Shown in pieces: positions 1 to 17,138 of a stretch of DNA of 20,870 bases. The translations under genes and the position numbers were made by a program. Source of the stretch: a virus (taxonomy: Duplodnaviria; Heunggongvirae; Uroviricota; Caudoviricetes); the IMG/VR virus record IMGVR_UViG_2896595138_000005, positions 1 through 20,870 of that record; one strand, written 5' to 3'. Within the stretch, counting starts at the first letter, position 1. Each line of letters opens with the position of its first letter. The notes below the pieces were generated by a model, which worked only from the letters and a program-made list of their open reading frames with translations, was not told the origin of the DNA and did not search any database.

Positions 1-819
1 ATGTGTCAGGTATTTGGTGTATCCAGGAGCGGTTATTACAACCGGGTACAGCATGAACCCTCAGACAGAAAACAAAGTGATGAGCGGCTAAAACTGGAGA
101 TTAAGGTGGCACATATCCGCACTCGCGAAACATATGGAACCCGGCGGCTCCAGACGGAGCTGGCAGAGAATGGCATCATCGTTGGTCGTGACCGACTGGC
201 ACGTCTTCGTAAGGAGCTAAGGCTACGCTGTAAGCAGAAACGCAAGTTCAGAGCGACTACGAACCCGAACCACAATCTGCCAGTTGCGCCAAATCTGCTG
301 AACCAGACGTTCGCTCCTACAGCACCAAATCAGGTCTGGGTGGCGGACCTGACGTATGTTGCCACACAGGAGGGATGGTTGTACCTCGCTGGCATCAAAG
401 ATGTTTATACGTGCGAAATTGTCGGCTACGCCATGGGAGAGCGCATGACAAAAGAGCTGACAGGTAAAGCCCTGTTTATGGCGCTCAGGAGCCAGCGCCC
501 ACCTGCCGGGCTAATCCACCACTCTGATCGAGGTTCACAGTACTGCGCATACGATTACCGGGTCATACAGGAGCAGTTTGGTCTGAAAACATCAATGTCG
601 CGTAAAGGTAACTGTTACGACAACGCTCCGATGGAAAGCTTCTGGGGAACGCTGAAAAATGAGAGCCTGAGCCACTATCGTTTTAATAACCGGGATGAAG
701 CCATCTCAGTAATACGGGAATACATTGAGATTTTCTACAATCGTCAGCGTCGTCACTCTCGTCTGGGGAATATCTCCCCGGCAGCCTTCAGGGAAAAATA
801 TCATCAGATGGCTGCTTAA
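1..819 (+). CDS. IS3-family transposase OrfB (DDE integrase catalytic domain)
   Basis: 272-aa ORF with recognisable IS3 OrfB features ([24 protein letters not shown]); same protein as 17139..17957. Confidence 0.85.
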   Translation: MCQVFGVSRSGYYNRVQHEPSDRKQSDERLKLEIKVAHIRTRETYGTRRLQTELAENGIIVGRDRLARLRKELRLRCKQKRKFRATTNPNHNLPVAPNLLNQTFAPTAPNQVWVADLTYVATQEGWLYLAGIKDVYTCEIVGYAMGERMTKELTGKALFMALRSQRPPAGLIHHSDRGSQYCAYDYRVIQEQFGLKTSMSRKGNCYDNAPMESFWGTLKNESLSHYRFNNRDEAISVIREYIEIFYNRQRRHSRLGNISPAAFREKYHQMAA

Positions 820-982: not shown

Positions 983-1161
983 ATTAATTCCTCTCAAATA
1001 AGTGGTTTGCTGCCTGATTTCATTTTCTGGCGACCAACACAAGTCACACCCATTTCACTGCGTGGCTTGCGGTAGTAAAGATTGTGCCTGTCTTTTAACC
1101 ACATCAGGCTCGGTGGTTCCTTCACTTTCCACAGTCAAAGGAAAGGAAGGTTCAGCGGCTG

Positions 1162-2143: not shown

Positions 2144-2214
2144 CGTAGATTCATATTCGAATCGTTGTATATTCACCGCCCTGGTGAGTAGTGCGTCCTG
2201 CTGATGGCTTAAAG

Positions 2215-2300
2215 ATAACCTAGGTTATAGCGGCGGTCAATAACTTAATTTATGGATTCTGATAAATAAGTTATAAGTGATGGATAATAAAGGTATTTTA
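2215..2300. promoter_or_regulatory. OL operator cluster / pL region
   Basis: Repeated near-palindromic sites ATAACCTAGGTTAT (2215..2228, perfect palindrome), ATAACTTAATTTAT (2240..2253) and ATAAATAAGTTAT (2262..2274), sharing half-sites with the sites in front of cI. Confidence 0.6.
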
Positions 2301-2410
2301 TTTTTGTAAATGTTGCGGATTGGTCGGTATTGGAAGGGGGGCGCTGTATTGCTGGCGTGTTGGTTCGTGGTTTACCGCATTTGCGGCTGTTAAATATGGG
2401 GGACGATCGC

Positions 2411-2445
2411 GAGGCAAAGAAAACCCGGCGCGGAAGCCGGGTTTG
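2411..2445 (-). terminator. rho-independent terminator after the 44-aa ORF
   Basis: Minus-strand AACCCGGC-loop-GCCGGGTT stem followed by TTTTCTTTG. Confidence 0.55.
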
Positions 2446-2459
2446 AGATTTAGTTATTT

Positions 2460-2594
2460 TCAGCAGCTCGGATAAGAGCGGAAGTGCTGACGAACATGTT
2501 CGAGCTCACCGAAACGTATGCGGCAGTAACTGCGCACATAAACCGGCTTGTCGTGTTCGTAGATGAAGTCATCGCGATTAACATCGTGAGCCAT
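2460..2594 (-). CDS. small hypothetical protein (44 aa) not in the supplied ORF track
   Basis: Hand-translated from the minus strand as MAHDVNRDDFIYEHDKPVYVRSYCRIRFGELEHVRQHFRSYPSC; AGGAG RBS 7 nt upstream of the ATG at 2594; terminator follows 16 nt after the stop. Confidence 0.45.
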   Translation of the reverse strand: MAHDVNRDDFIYEHDKPVYVRSYCRIRFGELEHVRQHFRSYPSC

Positions 2595-2715
2595 AGCTTT
2601 TCTCCTGTTTTTGTATACAGCCTGTTTACCCGAACAGGTTGTAGTTTGTTGGGAGAACCGCTATCCTTGGCTTGCGGTTGCCAAGGGTGTAGCGGTAGGT
2701 AATCCTCCATACACT

Positions 2716-2740
2716 TCGGAAATACTGGATATATTTCCGA
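2716..2740. promoter_or_regulatory. perfect 9-bp inverted repeat, candidate operator or hairpin
   Basis: TCGGAAATA-N7-TATTTCCGA, between the terminator of the 177-aa gene and the 44-aa ORF. Confidence 0.35.
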
Positions 2741-2768
2741 CCCAAAAAGCCCCGTTCCCTCGGGCTTT
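2741..2768 (-). terminator. rho-independent terminator after the 177-aa gene
   Basis: Minus-strand AGCCCGAGGGAACGGGGCT stem-loop followed by TTTTT, starting at the TAA stop codon. Confidence 0.5.
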
Positions 2769-3300
2769 ATTCTTTTGTTCCGCCATCAATCATCGCAAAA
2801 GATTCCACAATCAGACTGATACGCTTGGCTTCATCTTTTGTCAGGTCGCGAGGCAGGTTGCCAATGGTGACGATAAGATCTCCGCGCAATGGAATCGGCA
2901 GTTCAAATGTTTTTACACCAACCTGTACGTCAGCTACCGCCTTCTTCTTAGGTGCCATCTTTTTACGCTCCTTTTTTTTATTTACATCACCAACTGACAC
3001 ATTAATCTCACCATTCTGGTAGGAGATAAATTTATCAATAGCACTTTGCATTCGGCTTTTGTATGCCTGCAAAGATGATTCAGAGGGTTTGCTTTCTGCT
3101 GAGTCTGCGTACGAACTTGCTAAGTTGGCAACGCTATAATCACGGATATCGGCATCGGTGAAATCCGCCCCAAGAACAGTAAGAAGGCGCAGGGAAGAGT
3201 CACGGAGATTGCGGGCTGTAGCATCATTGACGATACCAAGCTCAGGAAGCATCTGTAAGAAGTCCTGAAATGCTTTGATGGTGTAGCTTTTGGTTTGCAT
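2767..3300 (-). CDS. hypothetical protein (177 aa) in the cI-to-OL cargo position
   Basis: Long ORF with a lysine-rich central linker (NKKKERKKMAPKKK); no recognisable family; flanked by its own 5' hairpin and 3' terminator. Confidence 0.6.
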   Translation of the reverse strand: MQTKSYTIKAFQDFLQMLPELGIVNDATARNLRDSSLRLLTVLGADFTDADIRDYSVANLASSYADSAESKPSESSLQAYKSRMQSAIDKFISYQNGEINVSVGDVNKKKERKKMAPKKKAVADVQVGVKTFELPIPLRGDLIVTIGNLPRDLTKDEAKRISLIVESFAMIDGGTKE

Positions 3301-3575
3301 AAAAAAGCCTCATACAGTTGATGAGGCAATACTAATTTGATCGTCAAAACAAATCAAGACCCAAGAAACGATCGTTGATTCCTTTCTTTGTGACAATACA
3401 GTCAAATCAAGTTTTACAAGGATTACTTTTCTTCGATTACATTAAAGGCCGCACTTCTGCGACCATCCATCACCAAAATGTCTCTTCACTCATCCGAAGA
3501 AGCAGCAATCCGGGTCAGCACGCACAAGCTCAAGCGCATCAGTCAGCGAAAGTTCAGTACTGTACTGATGCCATT

Positions 3576-3830
3576 TCATATCCTTCCGCATCCAATAGAT
3601 TTTCCATCTATCCAGAGAACGTATGTACTTGATTCTTGCTGATGGCAGGATGTTTGTTTCACCTGGGTTGCCCTGCCACACGGGCGCTGTTCGCCGATAT
3701 CTATCGTTTGGTCATTGATGCTATAAACAATATCCAGTTCATTGCGGATATGTTCAGGCGGCCTTATGCTTTCAATGAATTGGTGAACTTCTTTTTTGAC
3801 CGCTTGATATTCAAGGTCAGTGAACGCCAT
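3576..3830 (-). CDS. hypothetical protein (84 aa) co-transcribed with cI
   Basis: GAGGAGG RBS 5 nt upstream of the ATG; starts 37 nt after the cI stop on the same strand; no recognisable family. Confidence 0.55.
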   Translation of the reverse strand: MAFTDLEYQAVKKEVHQFIESIRPPEHIRNELDIVYSINDQTIDIGEQRPCGRATQVKQTSCHQQESSTYVLWIDGKSIGCGRI

Positions 3831-3867
3831 CTATCCTCCTCACCCAAACGTTTCTTCAGGCCACTGG

Positions 3868-4575
3868 TTACCAGCTATGCGATGACCAGAATACTCTGCC
3901 AATAATCCTTACGGTTTTATGAAATTCATCTCTATCCATTACTTCATCCGGGTACTCTTCGCGATTTATTGATCTGATTATCACCGATGTAGGAGTGGCG
4001 ATTAATGTTTTTACTCGCAACAAATCAGACTGGCAAATAGCGTAGGTTTTACCATCTCTGATGGTGGTATCTTGTGTGTTAACACCAACAACATCGCCAT
4101 CGTGAAGAGTTGGTTCCATGCTTTGACCTGTTACCCTTACCAGCTTGGCAGAACTTTCAGTTACCCCCATCTTTTTCAGATAGTACTTTCTGAAAACCAA
4201 AGAGAACTCTGATGATTCTTCTATCTCGCAGCTACCGCTTCCAGCCGAAAGCGAAACGTTAAGAAGAGGCAATGCGACAAACTCGTCATCGTTTTTTTTA
4301 ATGTCTTCCCATACCACAGCTTTTAAAGATGACTCACGGATATTGGATGGTTCTTCATGTGTACCATCCCTCATTTCACCAATACCAGAACTAAGCCATT
4401 CAGGGCGTACTTTTAAAGCATTAGCTAACTCAACCATCTTGCGAGATCCGTTTGTTTTACCGGATGACATCTTCTGTATGGCTGGCTGAGATATTCCAAC
4501 CATGTCCGCAAGCTGTGATTGCGACACCCCTGCCGATCTCATGGCTGCATTTAGTCTTTCTGCGAATGTTTTCAT
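3868..4575 (-). CDS. cI: CI-type prophage repressor (N-terminal HTH, C-terminal S24 LexA-like autopeptidase domain)
   Basis: HTH-like segment QSQLADMVGISQPAIQKM and a C-terminal S24-like region (VTGQSMEPTLHDGDVV, LRVKTL). Start placed at MKTFAERL (4575) rather than the first in-frame ATG (4605) because an operator site lies between them. Confidence 0.8.
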   Translation of the reverse strand: MKTFAERLNAAMRSAGVSQSQLADMVGISQPAIQKMSSGKTNGSRKMVELANALKVRPEWLSSGIGEMRDGTHEEPSNIRESSLKAVVWEDIKKNDDEFVALPLLNVSLSAGSGSCEIEESSEFSLVFRKYYLKKMGVTESSAKLVRVTGQSMEPTLHDGDVVGVNTQDTTIRDGKTYAICQSDLLRVKTLIATPTSVIIRSINREEYPDEVMDRDEFHKTVRIIGRVFWSSHSW

Positions 4576-4587
4576 ATCCACAAATCT

Positions 4588-4662
4588 ATAACTACGGTTA
4601 TCCAAAGTAAAATAATAAAGGTTATTGCTATCTTTTATAACTTGGGTTATCCTTGGTTATAA
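4588..4662. promoter_or_regulatory. OR operator cluster with divergent pRM/pR
   Basis: ATAACTACGGTTAT (4588..4601), ATAAAGGTTAT (4615..4625), ATAACTTGGGTTAT (4637..4650) and GGTTATAA (4655..4662), between the divergent cI and cro starts. Confidence 0.6.
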
Positions 4663-4686
4663 GCAATGGCTGAAAGAGGTATGCTC

Positions 4687-4911
4687 ATGAATTTAGTAAT
4701 TCAACGAGCCTTGAAGATTGTCGGTAGTCAAAAGCGGCTTGCCGACAAGTGTGGTGTAACGCAGCCAGCAGTACACAAATGGCTGAAAGGCGGGCAGGTT
4801 TCTCCAGAGAAAGTTACCGCCATCGTTAACGCCACTGGAGGGCAGATCAAGGCTTACGAAATTCGCCCAGATTTACCACACCTGTTTCCAAAACCGAATC
4901 AGGCAGCATAA
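4687..4911 (+). CDS. cro: Cro-like HTH repressor
   Basis: Small HTH protein (KRLADKCGVTQPAVHKWLKG) divergent from cI; AGAGGT RBS favours the ATG at 4687 over the ORF-track start at 4666. Confidence 0.7.
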   Translation: MNLVIQRALKIVGSQKRLADKCGVTQPAVHKWLKGGQVSPEKVTAIVNATGGQIKAYEIRPDLPHLFPKPNQAA

Positions 4912-4949
4912 GTAACACCGCTATTTTCACAATGGGCATTCGTCCTACG

Positions 4950-4964
4950 TCGCTGACAAAGCGA
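4950..4964 (+). promoter_or_regulatory. nutR boxB-like hairpin
   Basis: TCGCTGACAAAGCGA, same GACAA pentaloop as nutL, between cro and cII; a boxA-like CGCTATTTTCACAA lies about 25 nt upstream. Confidence 0.5.
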
Positions 4965-5049
4965 GCCCCAAGATATCTGACCAACTAAGGCCATATGCGT
5001 TTCCATGCATACCTTTCAACTAACTATTCACTATTGGAAATCTTAAGAA

Positions 5050-5349
5050 ATGGAACAAACAAGTTACAGCAAACTATCACAGCGCGACGTTGATCGCGCA
5101 GAAACAGATTTACTTATCAACCTGTCAACGCTTACACAGCGCGGTCTGGCAAAGATGATTGGCTGCCATGAATCGAAGATCAGTCGTACCGACTGGCGGT
5201 TTATTGCTTCGGTCTTGTGTGCTTTCGGAATGGCATCAGACATCAGTCCGATTAGCAGGGCTTTTAAGTATGCGCTTGATGGACTCACCAATAAAAAACG
5301 CCCGGTGTGCAAAACCGAGCGTTCTGAACAAATCCAGATGGAATTTTAA
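5050..5349 (+). CDS. cII: CII-like transcriptional activator
   Basis: 99-aa HTH protein (TQRGLAKMIGCHESKISR) in the canonical position after cro and nutR. Confidence 0.65.
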   Translation: MEQTSYSKLSQRDVDRAETDLLINLSTLTQRGLAKMIGCHESKISRTDWRFIASVLCAFGMASDISPISRAFKYALDGLTNKKRPVCKTERSEQIQMEF

Positions 5350-5371
5350 CAACATCCAACGAGGTAATTAT

Positions 5372-5643
5372 ATGCGAAACAAAGGCTTTAATCCACCTGA
5401 TACACACAAAGAAGCTAAGCGTTTGCGCTTCCTTCGTTCCATTGATGAAAGAACTCAAATCTCTTTTGTGAAAGTTGCCAGAACTGAGCTTCTGAAAGCT
5501 GAGGCGAGGGCGTTGCTCCCGCCTCTACCAAAAGAGGAGGGATATACGTTCATTCCAAACGCATTTCTGGAAAAGCTGCTCAAAGAAGACATATCCGTAA
5601 GTCAGTTTAACGATGTTCTTAAGGTCTTTCGTCAAGGCAGGTA
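5372..5643 (+). CDS. hypothetical protein between cII and the replication genes
   Basis: 90 aa from an internal ATG with a GAGG RBS, inside the longer ORF-track frame 5159..5644. Confidence 0.4.
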
Positions 5644-5646
5644 GTG

Positions 5647-6531
5647 ATGAGCAATACAGCAAAAATCTACGATTTCAGCGCCGCACACGAGCGCAGGAGC
5701 AACAGGATGGAGAACCAGAAAACTGGTTACATTCCGTTGTACCGGAGCATTCTGAAACAGTCATGGGCGAAAGATGTTTATCTTCGCACCCTGTGGGAAA
5801 ACCTTCTCCTGAATGCTGCCAGAAAGCCATACAAAGCGAATTTCAAAGGTCATGAATGGCATGTGCAACCCGGTCAACTGGTTGTGACAGCAGCTGATTT
5901 AGGTCTTCAGTTATGCGACAGGCATGGCAAGCCAGCAAGCCGTGATCAGGTTGAGCGGATGCTTCAGGTTTTTGTGAAAGAGGGGATGATCTCCATTGAT
6001 GGAGAGAAGCAAAAAGGTCGTGTGATCACCATCACAAATTACCATGAATATGCTCAAAAAATGGACAATTCACCCGCACATGAAGCCGCACAAACAACCG
6101 CACATCATGAACAAGAAGGTATTAACAAGAATATAAATAATATCTCTAATACTGACGTATTAGAGAGTGCCACAGCAGACAAAAAGTCTGACAAGAAAAA
6201 ACCTTCCGTTAGCTGTCAGGATGTTGTCGATGCTTACCACGAAATCCTTCCTGAAGCGCCAAGAATCCGCGCACTGAATGACAAGCGTAAAAACCAGATC
6301 CGAACGTTCTGGCGCAAAGCCGGAGTGATAACCCGCCAGCTTGACGGGCATGGGTTCACGATGCAGGACTGGAGAAATTATTTGAGCTACGTAGGCGAAA
6401 ATTGCCGATGGATGTTCGAAGAGCGCCCAAACCATCAGCGCGGAACCGTCTGGCACAAAAAGGGATTTGATTACCTGCTTAACGATAATACCTACCTGAA
6501 AGTTCGTGAGGGTGAACACGATGACCGATAA
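5647..6531 (+). CDS. phage replication initiation protein (O-like)
   Basis: 294 aa in the O position, ending 11 nt inside the start of the helicase gene; assignment is by position and general resemblance. Confidence 0.6.
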   Translation: MSNTAKIYDFSAAHERRSNRMENQKTGYIPLYRSILKQSWAKDVYLRTLWENLLLNAARKPYKANFKGHEWHVQPGQLVVTAADLGLQLCDRHGKPASRDQVERMLQVFVKEGMISIDGEKQKGRVITITNYHEYAQKMDNSPAHEAAQTTAHHEQEGINKNINNISNTDVLESATADKKSDKKKPSVSCQDVVDAYHEILPEAPRIRALNDKRKNQIRTFWRKAGVITRQLDGHGFTMQDWRNYLSYVGENCRWMFEERPNHQRGTVWHKKGFDYLLNDNTYLKVREGEHDDR

Positions 6532-7957
6532 TTTTTATGCGCCGCCCCATAGCATCGAGGCAGAGCAGGCGGTGATTGGTGGATTGCTTCTGGATGATGA
6601 CAGCAGTGAGCGCGTCCAGAAGGTTCTTGCGATGCTGAAGCCTGACTCATTTTACAGCCGGCCACACAAAATCCTTTTCGAAGAAATAACCAGAATGCAC
6701 CGGGAGCAAAAGCCAGTAGATGGCCTGACGCTTTTCGATGAACTGGAGCGTAAATCGTTAACGGCGTCTGTTGGCGGTTTTGCTTATATCGCTGAGATCG
6801 CAAAGAACACGCCAAGCGCCGCAAACATCGTTGCCTATGCAATGCAGGTTCGCGAAACCGCAATGGAACGCTACGCCATCAACCGCATGACTGAAGCGAC
6901 GGAATTGCTCTATTCCCGCAACGGAATGACTGCAACGCAGAAGTACGAAGCTATTCAGGCGATTTTCACGCAACTGACAGACCATGCAAAAACCGGATCA
7001 CGTCGCGGCCTTCGCTCATTTGGTGAGGTCATGGAAGACTGGGTTAGCGACCTTGAGAAGCGTTTTGACCCGTCAGGCGAACAACGAGGAATGAGCACAG
7101 GGATCCCATCGCTGGACAGGATGCTGTCACCGAAAGGTCTGGTGAAAGGCTCTCTGTTTGTCATTGGCGCTCGCCCTAAGATGGGGAAAACGACGCTATA
7201 CAGCCAGATGGCAATCAACTGCGCAGTGCATGAGAAAAAGCCCGCTCTGATGTTCAGCCTTGAAATGCCAGGTGATCAGATACTGGAAAAACTGGTAGGG
7301 CAGAAGTCTGGTGTTAACCCGAATATTTTTTACCTTCCGGCGACAAATGACGCCGATGACGGCTATCAGGGTGATTACGATGGTGACTTCAACAGGGCGA
7401 TCGAAACAGCCAATCGCTTGAGTGAAATCGACCTGCTTTACATCGACGACACGCCGGGATTATCTCTGGCTCAAATCGTCAGCGAAAGCCGTCGAATCAA
7501 GCGAGAAAAAGGATGTGTTGGCATGATTCTGGTCGATTACCTGACACTAATGACCGCTGAAAAGGCCGATCGCAACGACCTTGCCTACGGCATGATCACC
7601 AAAGGACTGAAGAACCTTGCCAAAGAGCTTGATTGCGTTGTTGTGCTTCTGACGCAGCTTAACCGCGCACTGGAAAGCCGAACCAATAAACGCCCATTAC
7701 CAAGTGACTCACGAGATACAGGGCAGATTGAACAGGATTGCGATTATTGGGTGGGGATCCATCGTGAAGGTGCTTTTGATGACAGTGTTCCACCTGGTGA
7801 AACCGAACTAATCCTTCGTCTCAATCGTCATGGCAATACCGGCACGGTGTATTGCATTCAGGCAAATGGAGCTATTTATGACACAGACCAACAGTCTGCT
7901 GAAATGCGCCGCCGTGAACGCGAGGAACCGCAGTCCAAGAAGAAAGGAGGATTCTGA
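6521..7957 (+). CDS. replicative DNA helicase, DnaB family (P-equivalent)
   Basis: DnaB N-terminal signature PPHSIEAEQAVIGGLLLD and Walker A GARPKMGKT; GAGGGTG RBS before the ATG at 6521. Confidence 0.85.
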   Translation: MTDNFYAPPHSIEAEQAVIGGLLLDDDSSERVQKVLAMLKPDSFYSRPHKILFEEITRMHREQKPVDGLTLFDELERKSLTASVGGFAYIAEIAKNTPSAANIVAYAMQVRETAMERYAINRMTEATELLYSRNGMTATQKYEAIQAIFTQLTDHAKTGSRRGLRSFGEVMEDWVSDLEKRFDPSGEQRGMSTGIPSLDRMLSPKGLVKGSLFVIGARPKMGKTTLYSQMAINCAVHEKKPALMFSLEMPGDQILEKLVGQKSGVNPNIFYLPATNDADDGYQGDYDGDFNRAIETANRLSEIDLLYIDDTPGLSLAQIVSESRRIKREKGCVGMILVDYLTLMTAEKADRNDLAYGMITKGLKNLAKELDCVVVLLTQLNRALESRTNKRPLPSDSRDTGQIEQDCDYWVGIHREGAFDDSVPPGETELILRLNRHGNTGTVYCIQANGAIYDTDQQSAEMRRREREEPQSKKKGGF

Positions 7958-7985
7958 TGACCATCTACATCACTGAGCTAATAAC

Positions 7986-8017
7986 AGGCCTGCTGGTAAT
8001 CGCAGGCCTTTTTATTT
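7986..8017 (+). terminator. rho-independent terminator (tR2-like) between helicase and ninB
   Basis: AGGCCTGC-loop-GCAGGCCT stem followed by TTTTTATTT. Confidence 0.6.
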
Positions 8018-8032
8018 GGGGAGAGGGAAGTC

Positions 8033-8473
8033 ATGAAAAAACTAACCTTTGAAATTCGATCTCCAGCACATCAGCAAAACGCTATTCACGCGGTACAGCA
8101 AATTCTTCCAGACCCAACCAAACCAATCGTAGTAACCATTCAGGAACGCAACCGCAGCTTAGACCAGAATCGAAAGCTTTGGGCTTGCCTTGGTGACGTC
8201 TCTCGTCAGGTTGAATGGCATGGTCGCTGGCTGGATGCAGAAAGCTGGAAGTGTGTGTTTACCGCGGCATTAAAGCAGCAGGACGTTGTTCCTAACCTTG
8301 CCGGGAATGGCTTTGTGGTAATAGGCCAGTCAACCAGCAGGATGCGTGTAAGCGAATTTGCGGAGTTATTAGAGCTTATACAGGCATTCGGTACAGAGCG
8401 TGGCGTTAAGTGGTCAGACGAAGCGCGACTGGCTCTGGAGTGGAAAGCGCGATGGGGAGATCGGGCTGCATGA
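8033..8473 (+). CDS. ninB: NinB recombination protein
   Basis: 146 aa with the characteristic N-terminus [21 protein letters not shown] and [10 protein letters not shown]. Confidence 0.8.
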
Positions 8474-9159
8474 CTATCAAATCAAATACGCCAGCACACG
8501 ACAAGGACTGCTGGCAAACGCCACTTTGGCTTTTTGATGCGCTGGATATTGAGTTTGGATTCTGGCTGGATTCGGCAGCGAGCGACAAAAATGCTCTGTG
8601 CGCTCACTGGCTAACTGAGGCCGACGACGCGCTCAATTCTGAGTGGGTAAGCCACAGTGCAATCTGGAATAACCCACCGTACAGCAATATCAGGCCGTGG
8701 GTGGAAAAAGCCGCTGAGCAGTGTATACAACAGCGACAGACGGTAGTTATGCTTGTGCCAGAGGATATGTCAGTCGGATGGTTCAGCAAGGCTCTGGAGA
8801 GTGTTGACGAAGTTCGCATCATCACTGATGGACGGATTAATTTTATCGAACCATCGACAGGGCTGGAGAAAAAGGGAAACAGTAAAGGCTCAATGCTGCT
8901 GATTTGGCGACCGTTCATCAGTCCCCGGCGAATGTTTACTACCGTATCCAAAGCGGCATTGATGGCGATCGGGCAGGGCGGCATGAGGCGACAGCGACGA
9001 AGTATTACCGACATAATCTGTGAAAACTGCAAATACCTTCCAACGAAACGCTCCAGAAATAAACGCAAGCCAATCCCAAAAGAATCTGACGTAAAAACCT
9101 TCAACTACACGGCTCACCTGTGGGATATCCGGTGGCTAAGACATCGTGCGAGGAAATGA
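8470..9159 (+). CDS. phage DNA N6-adenine methyltransferase (Dam type) with C-terminal basic extension
   Basis: NPPY catalytic motif; ATG at 8470 overlaps the ninB stop (ATGA); last ~60 residues are basic and not typical of the family. Confidence 0.7.
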
Positions 9160-9200
9160 CTATTTATCCGGTGCGCCGCCAGAATGACGGCGCGGTGTGG

Positions 9201-9509
9201 TTAAACGAAGCGGATCTGGAGTTTTTTTCCAGTAGCGCGGGCGAATTTTTTTAGTGTGGCAAATGATGGGCCGCTGATACCTGATGCGAGATTACTTTCC
9301 ATTCTGGTGATCGCGGTCGCTTTTGTTCCCATTCGCTCGGCAACTTCAGCCTGAGTTAAGCCAGCTTCTTTGCGTGCTGCCAGCATTTCATCAAGCAGTG
9401 CGAATTCGTCAGCGATAGCGTCGTATTCTGCTTTAAAAGCCGGGTCTTCCATCCATTTGGCTGCCATTTCGTCGTGTGTCATGGTGGGGAGAGTGCGTTT
9501 ACCAGTCAT
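9201..9509 (-). CDS. HigA-like HTH antitoxin (XRE family)
   Basis: HTH segment LTQAEVAERMGTKATAITRME; sits downstream of and overlaps the toxin gene. Confidence 0.7.
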   Translation of the reverse strand: MTGKRTLPTMTHDEMAAKWMEDPAFKAEYDAIADEFALLDEMLAARKEAGLTQAEVAERMGTKATAITRMESNLASGISGPSFATLKKFARATGKKLQIRFV

Positions 9510-9828
9510 GCTTAACCTCCTTCATTCTGGTTTCAGCTTTCTTGCGTTCGGCTGGCGGTGTTTTCTGCGTTTTCTTTACAAAACTATGCAGCATGATGAT
9601 GCGTTTCCCTGTCAGAGTGCAGTAAAAAACACGCGCGATCCCATCGTTGCCTTTAATTCTGAGTTCGAAAAGTCCGTCACCAAAGGCGCTGGTGTGAGGT
9701 TCTCCGAGATTGCTGCCATATATCTTCATACGTTCAACGAGATGTTGGTATCGGGCACGCATACTCAATGGAAGCCGATCGACTTCCAGCCTTACATCTT
9801 CACTGTAGTATTCGATAGTGTAGTTCAT
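9499..9828 (-). CDS. HigB/RelE-ParE family toxin (Gp49-like)
   Basis: Conserved C-terminal pattern LHSFVKKTQKTPPAERKKAETRMKE; start uncertain, the frame opens at 9918. Confidence 0.65.
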   Translation of the reverse strand: MNYTIEYYSEDVRLEVDRLPLSMRARYQHLVERMKIYGSNLGEPHTSAFGDGLFELRIKGNDGIARVFYCTLTGKRIIMLHSFVKKTQKTPPAERKKAETRMKEVKHDW

Positions 9829-9949
9829 AGGTATCAACATAACAAAATCGTTATATGCATTCAAGGCCTGTAGTTGACGACAACACATATCCGGGCTATA
9901 TTCCTCATACGCCAGCAAAATCTGGCGTCGGGATTGAGACCCCGGATGT

Positions 9950-10420
9950 TTACGGAGCGATATGAGACGCGCCCGCGTCTTTTTTCATATCGTTTGCACA
10001 GTCACATTCGCGATTTATGGTGGGCTGTGTGGGGGAGCCGAAACCGATAACCATTTCTTTGTTGAAGAGACAAAGCGAGCAGGCCAGTCCGATCGCGGTC
10101 CAACTGAGCCCCATTTCACGGGATTTTTCGGTAATACCATTCTCCCGATTGCTCCAGCGTTCCATAATCCAGTGGATCCACTCCTCCTGCTTAGGGAAGA
10201 GTAAAAACGGAATGGTCACCGGCAGGCCATAATCAATATTACGCGGGTCCGTTGTCATGCCCCAGCCGATAATGAACTGAGCCGGGTTGGTACGGTAAAA
10301 CTGTTTTAGTGCAGGCAATATTTCAGGATTCTGGCGAATGCGCTGTAGGCGTTCCATCCGCCATTCAAAAACCATCTGGTAATCAGGATGTTTAAAATCG
10401 AAGGGGAATGGTAACGGCAT
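9950..10420 (-). pseudogene. terminase large subunit, N-terminal fragment only
   Basis: Directly follows terS; only 156 codons where several hundred are expected; no portal, head or tail genes follow. Confidence 0.6.
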
Positions 10421-10422
10421 AC

Positions 10423-10977
10423 TTAGCCCATCATTTTTCTATACACCTCTGCGGCCTGCTCAGGCGTTAATTTGGTAATTTCTGTTCTGACTGGTCCTCC
10501 GTCAGCGCCAGTCACTTCATTTTTGACGTTGTCTTTAAACGCCTGAACAGAAACATGACGCCCAAGCAACTCAAGGTTTTTAACCTTATCAGGCCATTTG
10601 ATTTTCTTCAGAAGTGCGGCGCTATCTGCGGATACCATCTCCACGACATCCATTCCTGATAGCGTTGTGCGCCATACCTTAGGCCAGTCTTTAATGGGCT
10701 TTAGCTCACCGTTTTGCAGGAGAATGTCGAGCACATCCATCTGGTCGATTTCAACCAATCTACGAAGAACATAGGCGGCATCTATACCCGTCTGCTCAAC
10801 GCGGGCGGATTTAAGTTCAGCAACGAATTTTTGAACATTAACATTTGCTAATAATCGAGATGCCTGCTCATTGGCGGTCTTCTCGCTGTAGCCCGCCCTG
10901 ATAGCTGCCTGTGTGCCGTTCAGATCTTTCAGGTACTCACGGGCAAACAGCTCTTGTTTGTCGGTGAGCTTTGCCAT
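10423..10977 (-). CDS. terminase small subunit (P27 family)
   Basis: N-terminus [35 protein letters not shown] is the family signature. Confidence 0.8.
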
Positions 10978-11078
10978 TATTTGTGCTCCGTTTATCCGTT
11001 AAAAGGGATATCAGTTAAGTTATCCCGTGTAGGGTATAAGCCATTATCAAGCCCACCAGTAGATGGGCTTTGTAATGG

Positions 11079-11336
11079 CTACTTCGCTTTTGCTTCCGCT
11101 CGCTTACGCCGGCGCTCTTCTTTCCTCTCGGCTTTTGCCATGTCCATGAATGTCTGCATGATCGAGTTCCGCATCATGTAGCTAACAAAGTGATGATTGA
11201 CACAGCCGTTGAGGCGCAGCTGCTCGCCAAACTCATCCACCGAGGCCAATGCTTCCATCATGCCCTTCTCGCCTTTCATGAACTCTGAGAAGTCGCGCCC
11301 CGCTCTGGAGGCGCATTCAATGACACGATCACTCAT
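11079..11336 (-). CDS. hypothetical protein with basic C-terminal tail
   Basis: 85 aa ending KAERKEERRRKRAEAKAK; start overlaps the stop of the KilA-N gene (ATGA). Confidence 0.45.
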   Translation of the reverse strand: MSDRVIECASRAGRDFSEFMKGEKGMMEALASVDEFGEQLRLNGCVNHHFVSYMMRNSIMQTFMDMAKAERKEERRRKRAEAKAK

Positions 11337-11830
11337 CCCGGAAGCCCGGGGATCGTTATCTGCAGCTGGTTAGCCAGGGAGTTAATCTCAGCGACCAACA
11401 CTGGCTTCGTATAGCGCCATGCCGCCAGCCCTTGTCCACAGAAGCTCGCCATATCTTTTTTCTGATCAAACTCATGACACTTCATATTGAGCTGCGCACT
11501 TAAGCTGTTGCGATGCTGAAGTTCTCCGGTGAAGTAGTCATCCAGGACTTTATAGGCTGCATATTTAAATCCGGGGTTTAGCCATGCTGCATAATCATAA
11601 GCAACAAACTTCCCGCCATATGTTCCACCGTGTACACCGCGCTCAGTAAAAACCACAGATTCGTGGTTTTTCTCCAGCTCGGCTAAGAACTCTTTGGTCT
11701 GCTTGTTTCGCAGGTAGTGGTACGGAGATTCAGATTCACTTTTACCACTGGCTTTCCACATATCAGTGAGGCAGATCATTCCTGATTCATCAACACGGAT
11801 CGGTGTATTAAAAAGCGTGATTGCTTTCAT
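11333..11830 (-). CDS. KilA-N domain protein
   Basis: N-terminal KilA-N-like segment (ITLFNTPIRVDESGMICLTDMWKASGK). Confidence 0.6.
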   Translation of the reverse strand: MKAITLFNTPIRVDESGMICLTDMWKASGKSESESPYHYLRNKQTKEFLAELEKNHESVVFTERGVHGGTYGGKFVAYDYAAWLNPGFKYAAYKVLDDYFTGELQHRNSLSAQLNMKCHEFDQKKDMASFCGQGLAAWRYTKPVLVAEINSLANQLQITIPGLPG

Positions 11831-11977
11831 GGCGTCTTTACCTTTTAGAAAGATGAGCCTGTTCGCACAGAAAAGCCGTCCCCGAGATGGTCGCCACCAT
11901 ATACGGCAATTCTCAGGCTCAGCTTTCTGAAAGACTCGGGGTTTATATGCGCTGCGATGCGCGGTTTACTGCGGACA

Positions 11978-12003
11978 TATAAAAGCCCCGCAAGTGCGAG
12001 GCT
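11978..12003 (-). terminator. candidate rho-independent terminator after Rz
   Basis: GC-rich imperfect stem (AGCCTCGCA / TGCGGGGCT) followed by TTTTAT on the minus strand. Confidence 0.35.
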
Positions 12004-12035
12004 CATTAAATGGACTTTGTGATTTGCAAAAAAAT

Positions 12036-12503
12036 TTATTTCAGGCACTGAGTCCTGATGTACTCCTGAAGCATTCTCAATGCTGTCTGGTCGCTGATGA
12101 TTCCGTCCCGGATACCGAGAACGTTTCGTCCAGCAACTGGAGAGAGTTCGACGGTGGCATCATTGCCCATGCCGGAGGCGCTGGAGGTTTCGGCTGAGGA
12201 TGGCACAGGGCATTTTCCTTTGACGAGCACCCGACCACCATTATCAAGCTTGCGCCGAAGAGCATCATTTTCAGCTTTCGCATTGGCTAACTCCTTCGTG
12301 TATTTAGCATCGAGTGCATCAGCAGCACGCTGGCGCTGCTGCATGTCAGTAATGGTTGCGTTCGCCAGCTTCAGTTCTCTTGCGTTTTTGTCGCGCTGCT
12401 CTTTGTAGGTAATGGCGTTATCACGGTAATGATTAACAGCCCATGACAGGCGGACGATGATGCAGATAACCAGAGCGGAGATAATCGCGGTGACTCTGCT
12501 CAT
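12036..12503 (-). CDS. Rz: Rz i-spanin
   Basis: N-terminus [17 protein letters not shown] with a transmembrane segment, then an [19 protein letters not shown] region. Confidence 0.75.
12077..12283 (-). CDS. Rz1: Rz1 o-spanin lipoprotein, embedded in Rz in another frame
   Basis: Lipobox VVGC after a signal peptide, then a proline-rich segment (PKPPAPPAW). Confidence 0.7.
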
Positions 12504-12996
12504 TGCTGCCCCACAAACAGACTTCACGCTCAATCTCACGACGGGTCATCAGCCCTTTCCATTGCTTACCGCCAGCATATGTCCAGCGACGTAGCTGGTC
12601 ACATGCGCCTTTGATATCGCCCTGGTTTATTTTGCGAAGAAGCGTCGATGTTCTGAAATTGCCAGCGCCCACGTTGTAAACGAACGAGTAAAGAGCGCCG
12701 CGCGTTGTTTCCGGTATATCGACTTTGATGTACGGGTTAATTTGTCTGGCGACAGTGGCAAGGTCTTTATTCAGGAGAGCTTTGCATTCTGCTTCGGTAT
12801 ACGTTTTACCAGGCATGATGTCTTTTCCGGTGTGTCCGTGACATACAGTCCATACACCAATGATATCTTTGTATGGTATGTAGCTGACACCTTCCAGACC
12901 ATCGTTACCACCTGGGCCAGTGATTAACACAGATGCTATAGCAACAGCCCCGCCACCAATAGCAACTGCAACAGCCTTGCGTAATGATGGCGACAT
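12433..12996 (-). CDS. R: SAR endolysin (phage 21 R-type lysozyme)
   Basis: N-terminal Gly/Ala-rich signal-anchor ([20 protein letters not shown]); start overlaps the holin stop (ATGA); 3' end overlaps the Rz start by about 70 bp. Confidence 0.8.
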
Positions 12997-13211
12997 TATT
13001 CACCTCTCGCAGCCTTACGCTTGTCTTCTCTTAATTTGAAATACAGATTCGTCAGATAAGTCAGAAGCCCCAGAAGCAGACTTCCCAGCACACCAATCGC
13101 AGCCCACTGTGATGGACTGACCTGATCCAACCACTGCAAAAACCAGTAGCCGGCACTGCCGGCGGAGGTGCCGTAGGCAATGCCCGTTGAAATTTTGTCC
13201 ATGGATTTCAT
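12996..13211 (-). CDS. S: class II holin (phage 21 S-type pinholin)
   Basis: Dual-start MKSMDK motif and two transmembrane segments; start at 13211 inside the longer ORF-track frame. Confidence 0.75.
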
Positions 13212-13327
13212 AGCCTCACCTCCGCAAATAACGGATGGCGTAGTTCTTATATTGGGAAGGGAAAAAAAAGGCCGCAGCGTAACTGTCACTGATGAATTCA
13301 GGATAGCCAGTGGCTACGGCTCAGTTA

Positions 13328-13403
13328 TGGTGCTGGTTAACGGACTTGAACCGCTACCCATTCGCTTACAAGGCGACTGCTCTACCATTAGAGCTAAACC
13401 AGC
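13328..13403 (-). tRNA. tRNA-like gene, anticodon UGU (Thr) by hand folding
   Basis: 76 nt with 7-bp acceptor stem, GCTC/GAGC D-stem, CTTGTAA anticodon loop, TTCAAGT T-loop and encoded CCA. Confidence 0.5.
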
Positions 13404-13408
13404 ATATT

Positions 13409-13483
13409 TGGCGGGACAGCGTGGACTCGAACCACGATAAGAAGGTTAACAGCCTTCCGTAATGACCTTTATACGACTGACCC
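13409..13483 (-). tRNA. tRNA-like gene, anticodon GUU (Asn) by hand folding
   Basis: 75 nt with perfect GAAGG/CCTTC anticodon stem, CTGTTAA loop, CGTGG-TTCGAGT-CCACG T-arm and encoded CCA; one mismatch each in acceptor and D stems. Confidence 0.45.
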
Positions 13484-13672
13484 AAATAAAAAATCCCGAA
13501 AGCAGGCTCTATTCCTATGTGCTCTCGAGTTTATGATGCGCATGTCAGTGCGCTTAGCGAAAAACGCCGTAAACCCTCGCCCGACAGGGCGGGGAGCAGT
13601 CACAACTTAAAGATGAGGTGGGTAAAAAACCGAAAGAATGTGAACGGATATAAACCTGCCATTCTTGAGTCA

Positions 13673-13701
13673 AATTTACCCAACTTTATTCAAAAAGTCA
13701 A
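13673..13701 (-). promoter_or_regulatory. late promoter pR' (lambda-like)
   Basis: Minus-strand TTGACT, 17-nt spacer, TAAATT, within TTGACTTTTTGAATAAAGTTGGGTAAATTTGACTCAA. Confidence 0.6.
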
Positions 13702-13743
13702 TATCATGCCGTTAAGATGTTGCCATCCATGGCAATCATGCCG

Positions 13744-14367
13744 CTAACGTGTGACCGCATTCAAAATGTTGTCTGCGATTGACTCTTCTTTGTGGCATTG
13801 CACCACCAGAGCGTCATACAGCGGCTTAACAGTGCGTGACCATGTGGGTTGGGTGAGGTTTGGGATTAGCATCGTTACAGCGCGATATGCTGCACTTGCT
13901 GGCATCCTTGAATAGCCGACACCTTTGCATCTTCCGCACTCTTTCTCGACAACTCTCCCCCACTGCTCTGTTTTGGCTATATCAACTGCCAGACCTGTTC
14001 CGTGGCAATCTCTGCATCTTGCGCCCGGCGTCGCGGCACTACGGCAATAATCCGCATAAGCGAATGTTGCGAGCACTTGCAGTACCTTTGCCTTAGTATT
14101 TCCTTCGAGCTTTGCCACACCACGGTATTTCCCCGATACCTTGTGTGCAAATTGCATCAGATAGTTGATAGCCTTTTGTTTGTCGTTCTGGCTGAGTTCA
14201 TGCTTACCGCAAAATGCAGCCATTCCGAATCCGGCTTGTGATTGCGCCATCCCCATAGCAGCCATCACATCAGTACCGGAAAGAGAGTCAGAAGCCGTAG
14301 CCCGTGGTGAGTCGCTCATCATCGGGCTTTTTAGCGAATGAAATTTAGCTACGCTTTCGAGTCTCAT
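13744..14367 (-). CDS. Q: late antiterminator Q (lambda Q type)
   Basis: 207 aa with a CxxC...CxxC zinc-binding motif (CRDCHGTG...CGRCKG); recalled as near-identical to lambda Q. Confidence 0.8.
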   Translation of the reverse strand: MRLESVAKFHSLKSPMMSDSPRATASDSLSGTDVMAAMGMAQSQAGFGMAAFCGKHELSQNDKQKAINYLMQFAHKVSGKYRGVAKLEGNTKAKVLQVLATFAYADYCRSAATPGARCRDCHGTGLAVDIAKTEQWGRVVEKECGRCKGVGYSRMPASAAYRAVTMLIPNLTQPTWSRTVKPLYDALVVQCHKEESIADNILNAVTR

Positions 14368-15926: not shown

Positions 15927-15951
15927 GTCCTCTCATATTGAAAATTCAGCA

Positions 15952-15975
15952 ATAAAAAACCCAGCCGAAGCTGGG
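15952..15975 (-). terminator. rho-independent terminator between the ORF6N gene and the antirepressor gene
   Basis: Minus-strand CCCAGC-TTCG-GCTGGG followed by TTTTTTATT. Confidence 0.55.
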
Positions 15976-15994
15976 TCGTTGCGTTGGCAATCTG

Positions 15995-17103: not shown

Positions 17104-17138
17104 TCGAACAATGGCGACAACAATTTCCCATTGAAGCG

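What the first reader, a model, noticed from the sequence alone, without database searches (positions are those of the whole stretch)
2215..4662. Shared operator half-sites at OL and OR define the immunity specificity
At least three sites left of cI and three or four in front of it share ATAAC...GTTAT half-sites, including a perfect palindrome ATAACCTAGGTTAT. The arrangement supports the cI, cro, pL and pR assignments and implies a leaderless or near-leaderless cI transcript from pRM.
Basis: seen in the sequence. Interest (0 to 1): 0.4.

Follow-up and report, generated by a model that had tools for sequence, protein, structure and literature searches.

The report
Lambdoid prophage operators, 434-like type
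The repeated ATAAC…GTTAT sites are real repressor-binding operators flanking the cI repressor gene of a lambda-like prophage, arranged almost exactly as in phage lambda, so this is an ordinary but previously uncharacterised immunity type.

Summary
The motif is real and not compositional. A weight matrix built only from related phages ranks five 14-bp sites first to fifth in the window, at 15.5-21.6 bits: OL1 2215-2228, OL2 2240-2253, OR3 4588-4601, OR2 4612-4625 and OR1 4637-4650. An AT-rich null expects 0.01 such sites. The fourth OR site scores 8 bits and is absent from 62 of 110 related contigs.

The sites lie between a divergent cI (3868-4575, minus strand; HTH plus S24 autopeptidase) and cro (4687-4911), and over pL upstream of N. 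Site spacings of 25, 24 and 25 bp are identical in all seven related genomes examined. Distances to the promoters match lambda within 0.5-2.5 bp.

Specificity co-varies. Every repressor with helix SQPAIQKM, across at least four C-terminal domain types, has ATAAC-N4-GTTAT. Relatives with the same C-terminal domain but another helix have ACAAC-N4-GTTGT or ATCGC-N4-GCGAT, and Cro changes with them. Joints with heteroimmune phages fall just outside the operators.

The DNA-binding domain is closest to 434 repressor. A leaderless cI mRNA is well supported: a TAGATT -10 lies 7 nt from the ATG, with no Shine-Dalgarno sequence.

Verdict: a new member of a known kind, with low to moderate interest.

The parts
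2215..2228 (.). OL1, ATAACCTAGGTTAT. Perfect palindrome and the best-scoring operator. It lies in the spacer and -10 of pL.
   Evidence: Exact match. PWM 21.6 bits, rank 1. Half-sites invariant in 7 relatives.
2240..2253 (.). OL2, ATAACTTAATTTAT. One mismatch (right half TTTAT, conserved as such). It abuts and overlaps the pL -35 by 1 bp.
   Evidence: 18.0 bits, rank 4. The 25-bp centre spacing to OL1 is the same in all 7 genomes and holds in 86 of 100 viral contigs.
2212..2240 (-). pL: -35 TTGACC (2240-2235), 17-bp spacer, -10 TATCTT (2217-2212). Predicted +1 at 2205. The transcript starts ATCAGCAGGACGCACT, as at lambda pL.
   Evidence: Promoter scan. Alignment A3 with lambda, H-19B and PA28.
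2261..2297 (.). Distal OL element: conserved everted half-sites GTTAT (2270-2274), N9, ATAAT (2284-2288; ATAAC in relatives). These are candidate weak sites OL3 (2261-2274, at the position of lambda OL3) and 'OL4' (2284-2297). Neither is a full consensus site.
   Evidence: PWM -1.9 and 2.8 bits. N=9 in 78 of 86 viral contigs, with a variable intervening sequence.
2413..2441 (-). Intrinsic terminator-like hairpin CCCGGC-TTCCGC-GCCGGG followed by TTTTCTTT. It ends the leftward cI-side transcription unit before OL (tIMM-like) and is shared with heteroimmune phages.
   Evidence: Read from the sequence. Homology block 2400-2442 with Min27 and H-19B. Not called by the simple scan.
3868..4575 (-). 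cI repressor, 235 aa. N-terminal HTH_3 domain with recognition helix S29-Q-P-A-I-Q-K-M36. C-terminal S24 autopeptidase with cleavage site A111-G112, Ser152 and Lys189.
   Evidence: Pfam. Invariant columns in the alignment. NTD is closest to the 434 repressor NTD.
4583..4611 (-). pRM: -35 TTTACT (4611-4606), 17-bp spacer, -10 TAGATT (4588-4583), then 7 nt to the cI ATG (4575). No SD, so the cI mRNA is leaderless or has a 1-2 nt leader.
   Evidence: Sequence. Same -10 hexamer as lambda. The -10 is TAnnnT and the gap is 6-7 nt in 110 of 110 contigs.
4588..4601 (.). OR3, ATAACTACGGTTAT. It lies between the pRM -10 and -35, centred 19.5 bp from the cI ATG. Its centre is G/C-rich.
   Evidence: 19.3 bits. 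Central G+C averages 2.5 of 4 across relatives.
4612..4625 (.). OR2, ATAATAAAGGTTAT. One mismatch; it is the weakest of the five sites. It sits directly next to the pRM -35 and overlaps the pR -35 by 1 bp.
   Evidence: 15.5 bits. The 24-bp and 25-bp spacings are invariant.
4637..4650 (.). OR1, ATAACTTGGGTTAT. It lies in the spacer and -10 of pR.
   Evidence: 19.5 bits. ATAAC-N4-GTTAT is present at this offset in 110 of 110 contigs, although it was not part of the search pattern.
4625..4653 (+). pR: -35 TTGCTA (4625-4630), 17-bp spacer, -10 TATCCT (4648-4653). Predicted +1 near 4660-4661.
   Evidence: Hexamers are conserved at fixed offsets (TGGACA, TTGCTA or TTGCTC, and TATCTT, TATTTT or TATCCT) in 109 contigs. 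The match is 8 of 12, below the simple scan's threshold.
4687..4911 (+). cro, 74 aa, of the YdaS/P22_Cro type. SD AAGAGG at 4674-4679. Its recognition helix TQPAVHKW parallels that of cI.
   Evidence: Pfam. Cro helices.

Best explanation
The ATAAC-N4-GTTAT sites are the operators of a lambdoid immunity switch. A dimeric cI repressor has a 434-like HTH N-terminal domain (helix SQPAIQKM) and a LexA-type S24 C-terminal domain. It binds five 14-bp dyad sites. OL1 and OL2 cover the -10/spacer and -35 of pL and shut off N. OR1 and OR2 cover the -10/spacer and -35 of pR and shut off cro, cII, O and P. OR2 abuts the -35 of pRM, the position from which lambda cI activates its own promoter. OR3 lies between the pRM hexamers and would shut off cI at high repressor levels. 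Cro (helix TQPAVHKW) reads the same sites.

The cI mRNA from pRM starts at, or 1-2 nt before, its AUG. RecA-stimulated self-cleavage at A111-G112 would induce the switch.

Shown here: the sites, their statistics, their conservation, their geometry, the co-variation with the helices, and the module boundaries.

Inferred by analogy with lambda and 434: binding itself, cooperativity, pRM activation, the affinity order and the transcript starts.
For: Statistics.

Gene identities: (HTH_3 plus Peptidase_S24; Cro; CII; N).

Phylogenetic footprint: half-sites are invariant while the central 4 bp and the flanks vary in 7 genomes. The spacings of 25, 24 and 25 bp are fixed, although the OL-OR distance ranges from 1.2 to 2.6 kb. 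The same holds in 110 IMG/VR contigs with 11, 11 and 6 variants of OR3, OR2 and OR1.

Co-variation: SQPAIQKM goes with ATAAC regardless of C-terminal domain class (HK639, Citrobacter). SQASIQKI goes with ACAAC-N4-GTTGT, and AQSSI/V with ATCGC-N4-GCGAT. Cro helices change in step.

Mosaic joints: homology with heteroimmune Min27 and H-19B breaks at 2204/2207, 3879/3880 and 4898/4899. HK639 shares only 2203-2311 and 4369-4890.

Geometry: OR3, OR2 and OR1 centres lie 19.5, 43.5 and 68.5 bp from the cI ATG, against 19, 42 and 66 bp in lambda.

Promoters: pL was found by the scan and aligns with lambda pL including the transcript start. The pRM -10 is TAGATT, as in lambda.

Structure homology: the 434 repressor NTD matches at E=3e-7, ungapped, 34% identity.
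Against: There are no binding or transcript data for this phage or any homoimmune relative in the searchable literature.

pR matches the consensus at only 8 of 12 positions and was not called by the promoter scan. GenBank's HK639 annotation places pR about 17 bp further right.

OL has only two full sites, so the octamer-plus-tetramer looping scheme of lambda may not apply unchanged.

The prophage is IS-disrupted and rearranged, so the switch may now serve only superinfection immunity.
Confidence: 0.88

Rival explanations
1. The motif is a compositional by-product of AT-rich promoter DNA and has no specific binding function.
For: OL and OR are AT-rich (about 29% G+C). Lower-scoring look-alikes occur elsewhere, for example at 11010, 2114 and 3136.
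Against: Five sites of at least 15.5 bits were found where an AT-rich null expects 0.011. Other AT-rich windows hold 0-2 half-sites. Half-sites are invariant while neighbouring bases vary in 110 contigs. The half-sites co-vary with the recognition helix.
Confidence: 0.01
2. The sites are bound only by Cro or by another regulator, and the S24-domain protein recognises a different sequence.
For: Cro has a near-identical recognition helix, so sequence alone cannot separate the two proteins.
Against: The cI N-terminal domain is the part that travels with the operators: HK639 shares only the NTD-OR-cro block and the OL block. The cI helix changes with the half-site in Dickeya, Edwardsiella and Sodalis. 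No other repeated dyad is present in OL or OR.
Confidence: 0.03
3. cI is not leaderless. It is translated from a leadered pRM or pRE transcript, or from the upstream in-frame TTG at 4605.
For: An in-frame TTG exists at 4605. pRE transcripts, if made, would carry a leader. The gap in this window is 7 nt rather than lambda's 6, so a 1-2 nt leader is possible.
Against: The TTG lies between OR3 and the pRM -35 hexamer, and is out of frame in PA28-type relatives, which have a 1-bp shorter gap. The 6-7 nt between the -10 and the ATG varies in sequence and has no SD in 110 of 110 contigs. Relatives that do have a leader (Sodalis, Edwardsiella) show a clear AGAGG/GAGGG SD. Gene callers often miss this start, giving 189-aa and 224-aa calls.
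Confidence: 0.1
4. OL and OR each carry extra functional operators, a third and fourth at OL and a fourth at OR, as the reader proposed and as reported for H-19B OR.
For: GTTAT-N9-ATAAC right of OL2 is conserved in 78 of 86 contigs. 2261-2274 sits where lambda OL3 sits. TTATCnTTGGTTAT is present in 48 of 110 contigs. H-19B is reported to have four OR sites (PMC8065619).
Against: Full-site PWM scores are -1.9, 2.8 and 8.2 bits. The fourth OR site overlaps OR1 by 4 bp and is absent from HK639- and Citrobacter-type ORs. H-19B is heteroimmune, with unrelated cI, Cro and operators. 933W has only two OL sites (PMC8065619).
Confidence: 0.3

Closest known systems
Phage lambda immunity region (cI, cro, OR1-3, OL1-3, pR, pRM, pL)
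   Same: Both have divergent cI and cro around a tripartite OR. Operator centres lie 19.5, 43.5 and 68.5 bp from the cI ATG, against 19, 42 and 66 bp in lambda. The pRM -10 is TAGATT in both. The cI start is leaderless in both. The pL -35 and transcript start align base for base. cI is an HTH plus an S24 autopeptidase, with an Ala111-Gly112 cleavage site.
   Different: The operators here are 14-bp ATAAC-N4-GTTAT, not 17-bp TATCACCGCCAGTGGTA-type. The N-terminal domain is 434-like, not lambda-like. OL has two full sites plus half-sites rather than three. The genes between cI and OL are different, and there is no rexAB.
Phage 434 repressor, Cro and operators (ACAA-N6-TTGT, 14 bp; PDB 2OR1, 1PER, 1RPE)
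   Same: 434 repressor is the closest solved homologue of the DNA-binding domain (E=3e-7, ungapped, 34% identity). Both use a 14-bp dyad operator with A at position 1 and AA at positions 3-4. The Gln at the start of helix 3 is kept (Q30 here, Q28 in 434). The central bases vary and are presumably non-contacted, and are G/C-rich in OR3 and A/T-rich in OR1 and OR2.
   Different: Position 2 is T rather than C, and position 5 is a conserved C. The helix is Q-P-A-I-Q-K here against Q-Q-S-I-E-Q in 434. The two are therefore heteroimmune.
HK639, PA28 / O157 Stx1a phages, SH2026Stx1 and Stx1a_10051 (unstudied phages with the same operators)
   Same: They have the same recognition helix, the same half-sites and the same 25/24/25-bp spacing. 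They are predicted to be homoimmune with this prophage.
   Different: cI C-terminal domains differ: HK639 is 42% identical overall. The genes between cI and OL also differ. HK639 uses put RNA rather than N. No operator study of any of these phages was found.
H-19B (four OR operators) and 933W (two OL operators)
   Same: They are Stx-phage relatives that share the N/nutL side and the cII side with this window. 933W sets a precedent for a two-site OL (PMC8065619).
   Different: Their cI, Cro and operators are unrelated. H-19B cI shows no significant similarity, and its OR carries GATAAAT-type repeats.

Membership tests
Lambdoid cI/Cro immunity switch | Divergently transcribed repressor and cro genes separated by a short multi-operator region | tested here: met
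   cI at 3868-4575 (minus strand) and cro at 4687-4911 (plus strand) are separated by a 111-bp intergenic region holding three 14-bp sites.
Lambdoid cI/Cro immunity switch | The repressor is an N-terminal HTH plus a C-terminal LexA-like S24 autopeptidase with an Ala-Gly site and a Ser/Lys dyad | tested here: met
   Pfam HTH_3 (2.4e-7) and Peptidase_S24 (3.5e-18). A111-G112 is present, and G112, S152 and K189 are invariant in 22 homologues.
Lambdoid cI/Cro immunity switch | A second operator cluster of the same specificity overlaps pL upstream of N | tested here: met
   OL1 and OL2 overlap TTGACC-17-TATCTT. The N gene is at 1581-1964. The region aligns with lambda pL.
Lambdoid cI/Cro immunity switch | Three operators at each of OL and OR | tested here: inconclusive
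   OR has three clear sites. OL has two full sites plus conserved half-sites.
Lambdoid cI/Cro immunity switch | Cooperative repressor binding, pRM activation from OR2, and Cro/cI competition | not testable with these tools
   Only the geometry supports this: OR2 is adjacent to the pRM -35, centred 43.5 bp from the start.
434-type repressor/operator class | DNA-binding domain homologous to the 434 repressor N-terminal domain | tested here: met
   phmmer against PDB: 1PER/2OR1 at E=3.2e-7, residues 6-67 aligned to 4-65 without gaps. BLASTP gives 34% identity.
434-type repressor/operator class | 14-bp dyad operator with conserved outer 4-5 bp and a variable centre | tested here: met
   Per-column information is high at positions 1-5 and 10-14 and low at positions 6-9.
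434 immunity specificity (imm434) | ACAA...TTGT half-sites and Gln28/Gln29/Gln33 contact residues | tested here: not met
   The half-site is ATAAC, and the helix is Q30-P31-A32...K35. This is not imm434.
H-19B immunity | cI, Cro and operators related to those of H-19B | tested here: not met
   cI BLASTP gives E=0.25 and Cro gives no alignment. The operators are different.
Leaderless cI mRNA (lambda pRM type) | A -10 hexamer 6-7 nt upstream of the AUG and no Shine-Dalgarno sequence | tested here: met
   TAGATT, then 7 nt, then ATG. The pattern TAnnnT with a 6-7 nt gap holds in 110 of 110 contigs.
Leaderless cI mRNA (lambda pRM type) | Mapped transcript 5' end at the AUG | not testable with these tools
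   This needs 5'-RACE or primer extension.

The most novel reading that the evidence does not exclude
The strictly conserved everted pair GTTAT-N9-ATAAC (2270-2288) beyond OL2 may be a non-canonical third OL element. Two repressor dimers would each be held by a single good half-site, 23 bp apart. This would give the family a four-dimer OL, or a dedicated anchor for OL-OR looping, unlike lambda, 434 or 933W. In addition, one DNA-binding domain with its operator set has been joined to at least four different C-terminal cooperativity/cleavage domains. Phages of identical immunity could therefore differ in inducibility.
Probability: 0.2. Interest if true: 0.4.

Novelty: new member of a known kind. 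Interest (0 to 1): 0.25.

Why it matters
The result defines the operator code (ATAAC-N4-GTTAT, read by SQPAIQKM in cI and TQPAVHKW in Cro) of an immunity group with no published operator study. The group is nevertheless common: at least 110 IMG/VR contigs, HK639, and several Stx1a-converting phages of O157 and other STEC.

It predicts which Stx1 phages and resident defective prophages are homoimmune. That bears on superinfection exclusion and on the acquisition of Stx phages.

It gives a natural specificity series for studying HTH recognition in a 434-like scaffold: ATAAC, ACAAC and ATCGC, paired with QPA, QAS and QSS.

It also explains a published anomaly. The 'HTH-less' clade V CI of SH2026Stx1 is a start-codon mis-call caused by a leaderless gene.

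Mechanistically nothing departs from the lambda/434 paradigm.

Tried and rejected
1. Link to the published four-operator OR of H-19B. I rejected this because H-19B (AF034975) is heteroimmune, with unrelated cI, Cro and operators. It shares only the flanks.

2. The PWM does not support either.

3. Literature search for the operator sequences and for HK639 operator work. No relevant paper was found in the library. Shi & Friedman 2001 and Tyler et al. 2004 are not held.

4. The simple promoter scan did not call pR or pRM, which match at 8 of 12 or fewer. I assigned them from conservation and from lambda geometry instead.

5. HK639's GenBank pR (TTGGGT-17-AGTAAT) has no counterpart in this window. 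I preferred TTGCTA/TGGACA-17-TATCyT, which is conserved in all classes.

6. A plus-strand promoter-like hit, CTGATA-18-GATAAT at 2259-2288. In most relatives the hexamer is GATAAC, so I did not pursue it.

7. A small half-site cluster at 16585-16677 and single hits at 11010, 2114 and 3136. Their PWM scores are low and they are isolated or lie in DNA shared with heteroimmune phages, so I treated them as chance.

8. A whole-window search of complete E. coli genomes. No genome holds more than 28% of the window in one place, so the source could not be identified.
Full report
**What is in the window.** The left 9 kb is the early region of a lambdoid, Stx-phage-like prophage.
- A 933W/H-19B-type N gene lies at 1581-1964 on the minus strand.
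- Three small leftward ORFs follow.
- A repressor gene lies at 3868-4575 on the minus strand. It encodes 235 aa from the ATG, with Pfam HTH_3 and Peptidase_S24 domains.
- A divergent cro lies at 4687-4911 and is of the YdaS/P22_Cro type.
- cII lies at 5050-5349, followed by O and a DnaB-type helicase.

The repressor has the LexA-type features: A111-G112, Ser152 and Lys189. G112, S152 and K189 are invariant in 22 homologues.

- Exact ATAACNNNNGTTAT occurs three times (2215, 4588, 4637) against 0.01 expected from dinucleotide shuffles.
- Allowing one mismatch adds only 2240 and 4612.
- The pentamer half-sites occur at 4-7 per 100 bp in 2205-2300 and 4580-4665, against 0.24 per 100 bp overall. 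The other AT-rich 100-bp windows hold 0-2.
- A weight matrix built only from sites in six related genomes, not from this window, ranks the five sites 1-5 of 20,857 positions at 15.5-21.6 bits. The maximum possible is 21.6, and the next best site elsewhere scores 11.4.
- A null with the composition of OL/OR themselves expects 0.011 sites of at least 14 bits in 182 bp.

ATAACCTAGGTTAT is indeed a perfect palindrome.

**What was over-read.**
- The third OL site (2261-2274 or 2262-2275) scores -1.9 and -4.4 bits. Only its GTTAT half is conserved.
- The fourth OR site (4647-4660) scores 8.2 bits, with 0.17 expected by chance. It overlaps OR1 by 4 bp and is missing from 62 of 110 related contigs.
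- The literature report of four OR operators concerns H-19B (PMC8065619). I fetched H-19B (AF034975). Its cI and Cro are unrelated to those here and its operators differ, so that precedent does not transfer.

**Comparative evidence.** DNA relatives of the cI-OR-cro block are the following:

| Relative | DNA identity to the block |
|---|---|
| Stx1a_10051 | 94% |
| SH2026Stx1 | 92% |
| PA28 and the O157 Stx1a phages | 77% |
| A Salmonella contig | 75% |
| HK639 | 72%, N-terminal part only |
| Citrobacter prophages | found through the protein |

- In all of them the ATAAC and GTTAT pentamers of OR3, OR1 and OL1 are invariant, while the central 4 bp and the flanks vary. OL2 keeps ATAAC...TTTAT, and OR2 is the most degenerate site.
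- Centre-to-centre spacings are 25 bp (OL1-OL2), 24 bp (OR3-OR2) and 25 bp (OR2-OR1) in all seven genomes. The OL-OR distance meanwhile ranges from 1.2 to 2.6 kb.
110 hits are genuine ORs next to a repressor start.
- OR1 was not in the search pattern, yet it is ATAAC-N4-GTTAT at the same offset in 110 of 110 contigs.
- 86 of 100 contigs with enough flank carry the OL1-OL2 pair.

**Do the half-sites define specificity?** Three independent lines say yes.

1. Co-variation.
   - All 104 full-length repressors read from those contigs have helix SQPA(I/V)QK(M/L), although their C-terminal domains fall into at least four classes.
   - HK639 and Citrobacter, 42-50% identical overall, share the helix and the operators.
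   - Relatives that keep this window's C-terminal domain but have another helix have other half-sites on the same 14-bp frame. Dickeya (SQASIQKI) has ACAAC-N4-GTTGT. Edwardsiella and Sodalis (AQSSI/V) have ATCGC-N4-GCGAT.
   - Cro helices change in parallel: TQPAVHKW, TQAAVQKW and AQSTI/VCDW. The helix is (S/T)QPAVHKW in 108 of 109 contigs.
2. Mosaic joints. Homology with heteroimmune Min27 and H-19B stops at 2204/2207, the predicted pL start 8-11 bp before OL1. It resumes at about 2400, stops again at 3879/3880 just inside the 3' end of cI, and resumes at 4898/4899 at the end of cro.
3. HK639 shares with the window only 2203-2311 (OL) and 4369-4890 (cI N-terminal domain, OR and cro).

**Promoters and mechanism.**
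- **pL.** The scan calls TTGACC-17-TATCTT on the minus strand (2240-2212). In alignment with lambda, H-19B and PA28, the -35 and the start region CATCAGCAGGACGC are invariant column for column. This places +1 at 2205.
- **pR.** The best candidate is TTGCTA (4625-4630), 17 bp, TATCCT (4648-4653). It matches at only 8 of 12, but the hexamers are conserved at fixed offsets in 109 contigs: TGGACA in 57, TTGCTA in 37, and TATCTT in 92.
- **Common layout.** At both promoters the proximal operator fills the spacer and supplies the TATC of the -10. The second operator ends at the -35.
- **pRM.** On the minus strand, TTTACT (4611-4606), 17 bp, TAGATT (4588-4583), 7 nt, then the ATG at 4575. TAGATT is the lambda pRM -10 hexamer.
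- **Geometry.** Operator centres lie 19.5, 43.5 and 68.5 bp from the cI ATG, against 19, 42 and 66 bp in lambda. OR2 therefore sits where lambda cI activates pRM, and OR3 sits between the pRM hexamers.

Binding, cooperativity and activation are inferred from this geometry and from established lambda biology. They are not shown here.

**Leaderless cI.**
- In 110 of 110 contigs a TAnnnT hexamer (TAGATT in 52, TATATT in 50, others in 8) lies 6-7 nt from the ATG.
- The intervening bases vary and contain no SD.
- The in-frame TTG at 4605 is out of frame in the PA28-type relatives.
- Heteroimmune relatives with a real leader (Sodalis, Edwardsiella) show a clear AGAGG or GAGGG SD, whereas Dickeya keeps the TAGATT-6 nt-ATG design.
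- Gene callers often miss this start. RefSeq annotates the SH2026Stx1 repressor as 189 aa without an HTH. However, the ORF is open to the homologous ATG and encodes a 235-aa protein about 96% identical to this one. Truncated 189-aa and 224-aa calls also recur in the protein database.

With a 7-nt gap in this window, a 0-2 nt leader is the honest range.

**Relation to known systems.** The architecture is lambda's. The DNA-binding chemistry is closest to 434.
- The N-terminal domain aligns without gaps to the 434 repressor N-terminal domain (E=3e-7, 34% identity).
- The operator is a 14-bp dyad, like the 434 operator.
- From published 434 co-crystal work (cited from my own knowledge), Gln28 reads A1 and Gln29 reads base pair 2. 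Here the Gln28 equivalent (Q30) and A1 are kept. Gln29 is Pro31, and base 2 is T instead of C. Gln33 is Lys35, next to a conserved C-G at position 5. These contacts are inference.
- As in 434, the centre may tune affinity. OR3 centres are G/C-rich (mean 2.5 of 4), while those of OR1 (1.4) and OR2 (0.9) are A/T-rich.
- It is not imm434, imm-lambda, imm-H-19B or imm-933W.
- Among deposited phages, only the Stx1a phages, PA28, HK639 and one Salmonella contig carry this N-terminal domain at more than 80% identity.
- I found no paper holding these operator sequences.

**Unexplained remainder.** Right of OL2, GTTAT (2270-2274) and ATAAT (2284-2288; ATAAC in relatives) are separated by exactly 9 bp in 78 of 86 contigs, while the 9 bp vary.
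- The simplest reading is two weak operators with one good half-site each. OL3 (2261-2274) would lie at the position of lambda OL3, and a fourth site (2284-2297) would lie 23 bp away. This is untested.
- Beyond it, an A/T block (2293-2309) is conserved even in lambda.

**Verdict.** The finding is essentially correct and now well supported. It describes an uncharacterised but conventional lambdoid immunity group. It is a new member of a known kind, of low to moderate interest.

Noticed in passing
window 3490-3830 (minus strand): The DUF3024 gene just downstream of cI has a 1-bp deletion in a C run, relative to the intact 114-aa gene in SH2026Stx1 and FDAARGOS_944. It is a frameshifted pseudogene here.
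   Followed up: yes
L001 (SH2026Stx1, NC_049919) 3178-3885: The RefSeq CI protein YP_009907967.1 (189 aa) is described in PMC8951638 as a clade V CI lacking the HTH. It is a start-codon mis-call. The ORF is open to the homologous ATG and encodes a 235-aa HTH plus S24 repressor.
   Followed up: yes
window 9200-16762 (minus strand) versus 4687-9159 (plus strand): The late-regulatory and lysis block (two antirepressors, ybcO, rusA, Q, lysozyme, KilA-N, small terminase) lies inverted relative to the early rightward operon. No complete E. coli genome holds more than 28% of the window in one place. This looks like an IS-scrambled, probably defective prophage.
   Followed up: partly
window 1-819, 16801-17957 and 19312-20870: Two copies of the same IS3-family (IS600-like) transposase ORF (272 aa) lie in direct orientation at 1-819 and 17139-17957. 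A phage-type integrase lies at 18253-19200, and IS66-family genes lie at the right end.
   Followed up: partly
window 994-1125 (minus strand): A short ORF ends ...YYRKPRSEMGVTCVGRQKMKSGSKPLI. From memory, it resembles the C-terminus of a phage 21/lambda-type N protein. It may be a remnant of a second antiterminator gene next to the IS.
   Followed up: no
window 2270-2288: An everted half-site pair, GTTAT-N9-ATAAT/C, lies right of OL2. The spacing is exactly 9 bp in 78 of 86 related viral contigs, with a variable intervening sequence. These are possible weak OL3 and OL4 sites.
   Followed up: partly
window 2293-2309: The A/T block ATTTTATTTTTGTAAAT upstream of pL is conserved across homoimmune relatives. 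Its core, AAAAATAAA(A/T)T on the minus strand, is also conserved in lambda, H-19B and PA28. From memory, lambda has an IHF/UP-type element in this position.
   Followed up: no
window 2310-2393 (plus strand): A 27-codon hydrophobic ORF (MLRIGRYWKGGAVLLACWFVVYRICGC) starts right after the A/T block. HK639 has an annotated 78-aa gene starting at the equivalent ATG without an SD, but the ORF length is not conserved in SH2026Stx1. It is probably not a gene here.
   Followed up: no
window 5050-5086 (minus strand): TTGC-N6-TTGT lies just inside the start of cII, followed by TAAGAT. From memory, this resembles the lambda pRE CII-binding repeats and -10. It would be a CII-activated leftward promoter for establishing cI.
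   Followed up: no
window 3307-3327 (minus strand): A terminator-like hairpin with a T6 run ends 6 nt before the ATG of the 177-aa ORF (2767-3300). The GAGG in the 3' arm of the hairpin would be that ORF's only SD.
   Followed up: no
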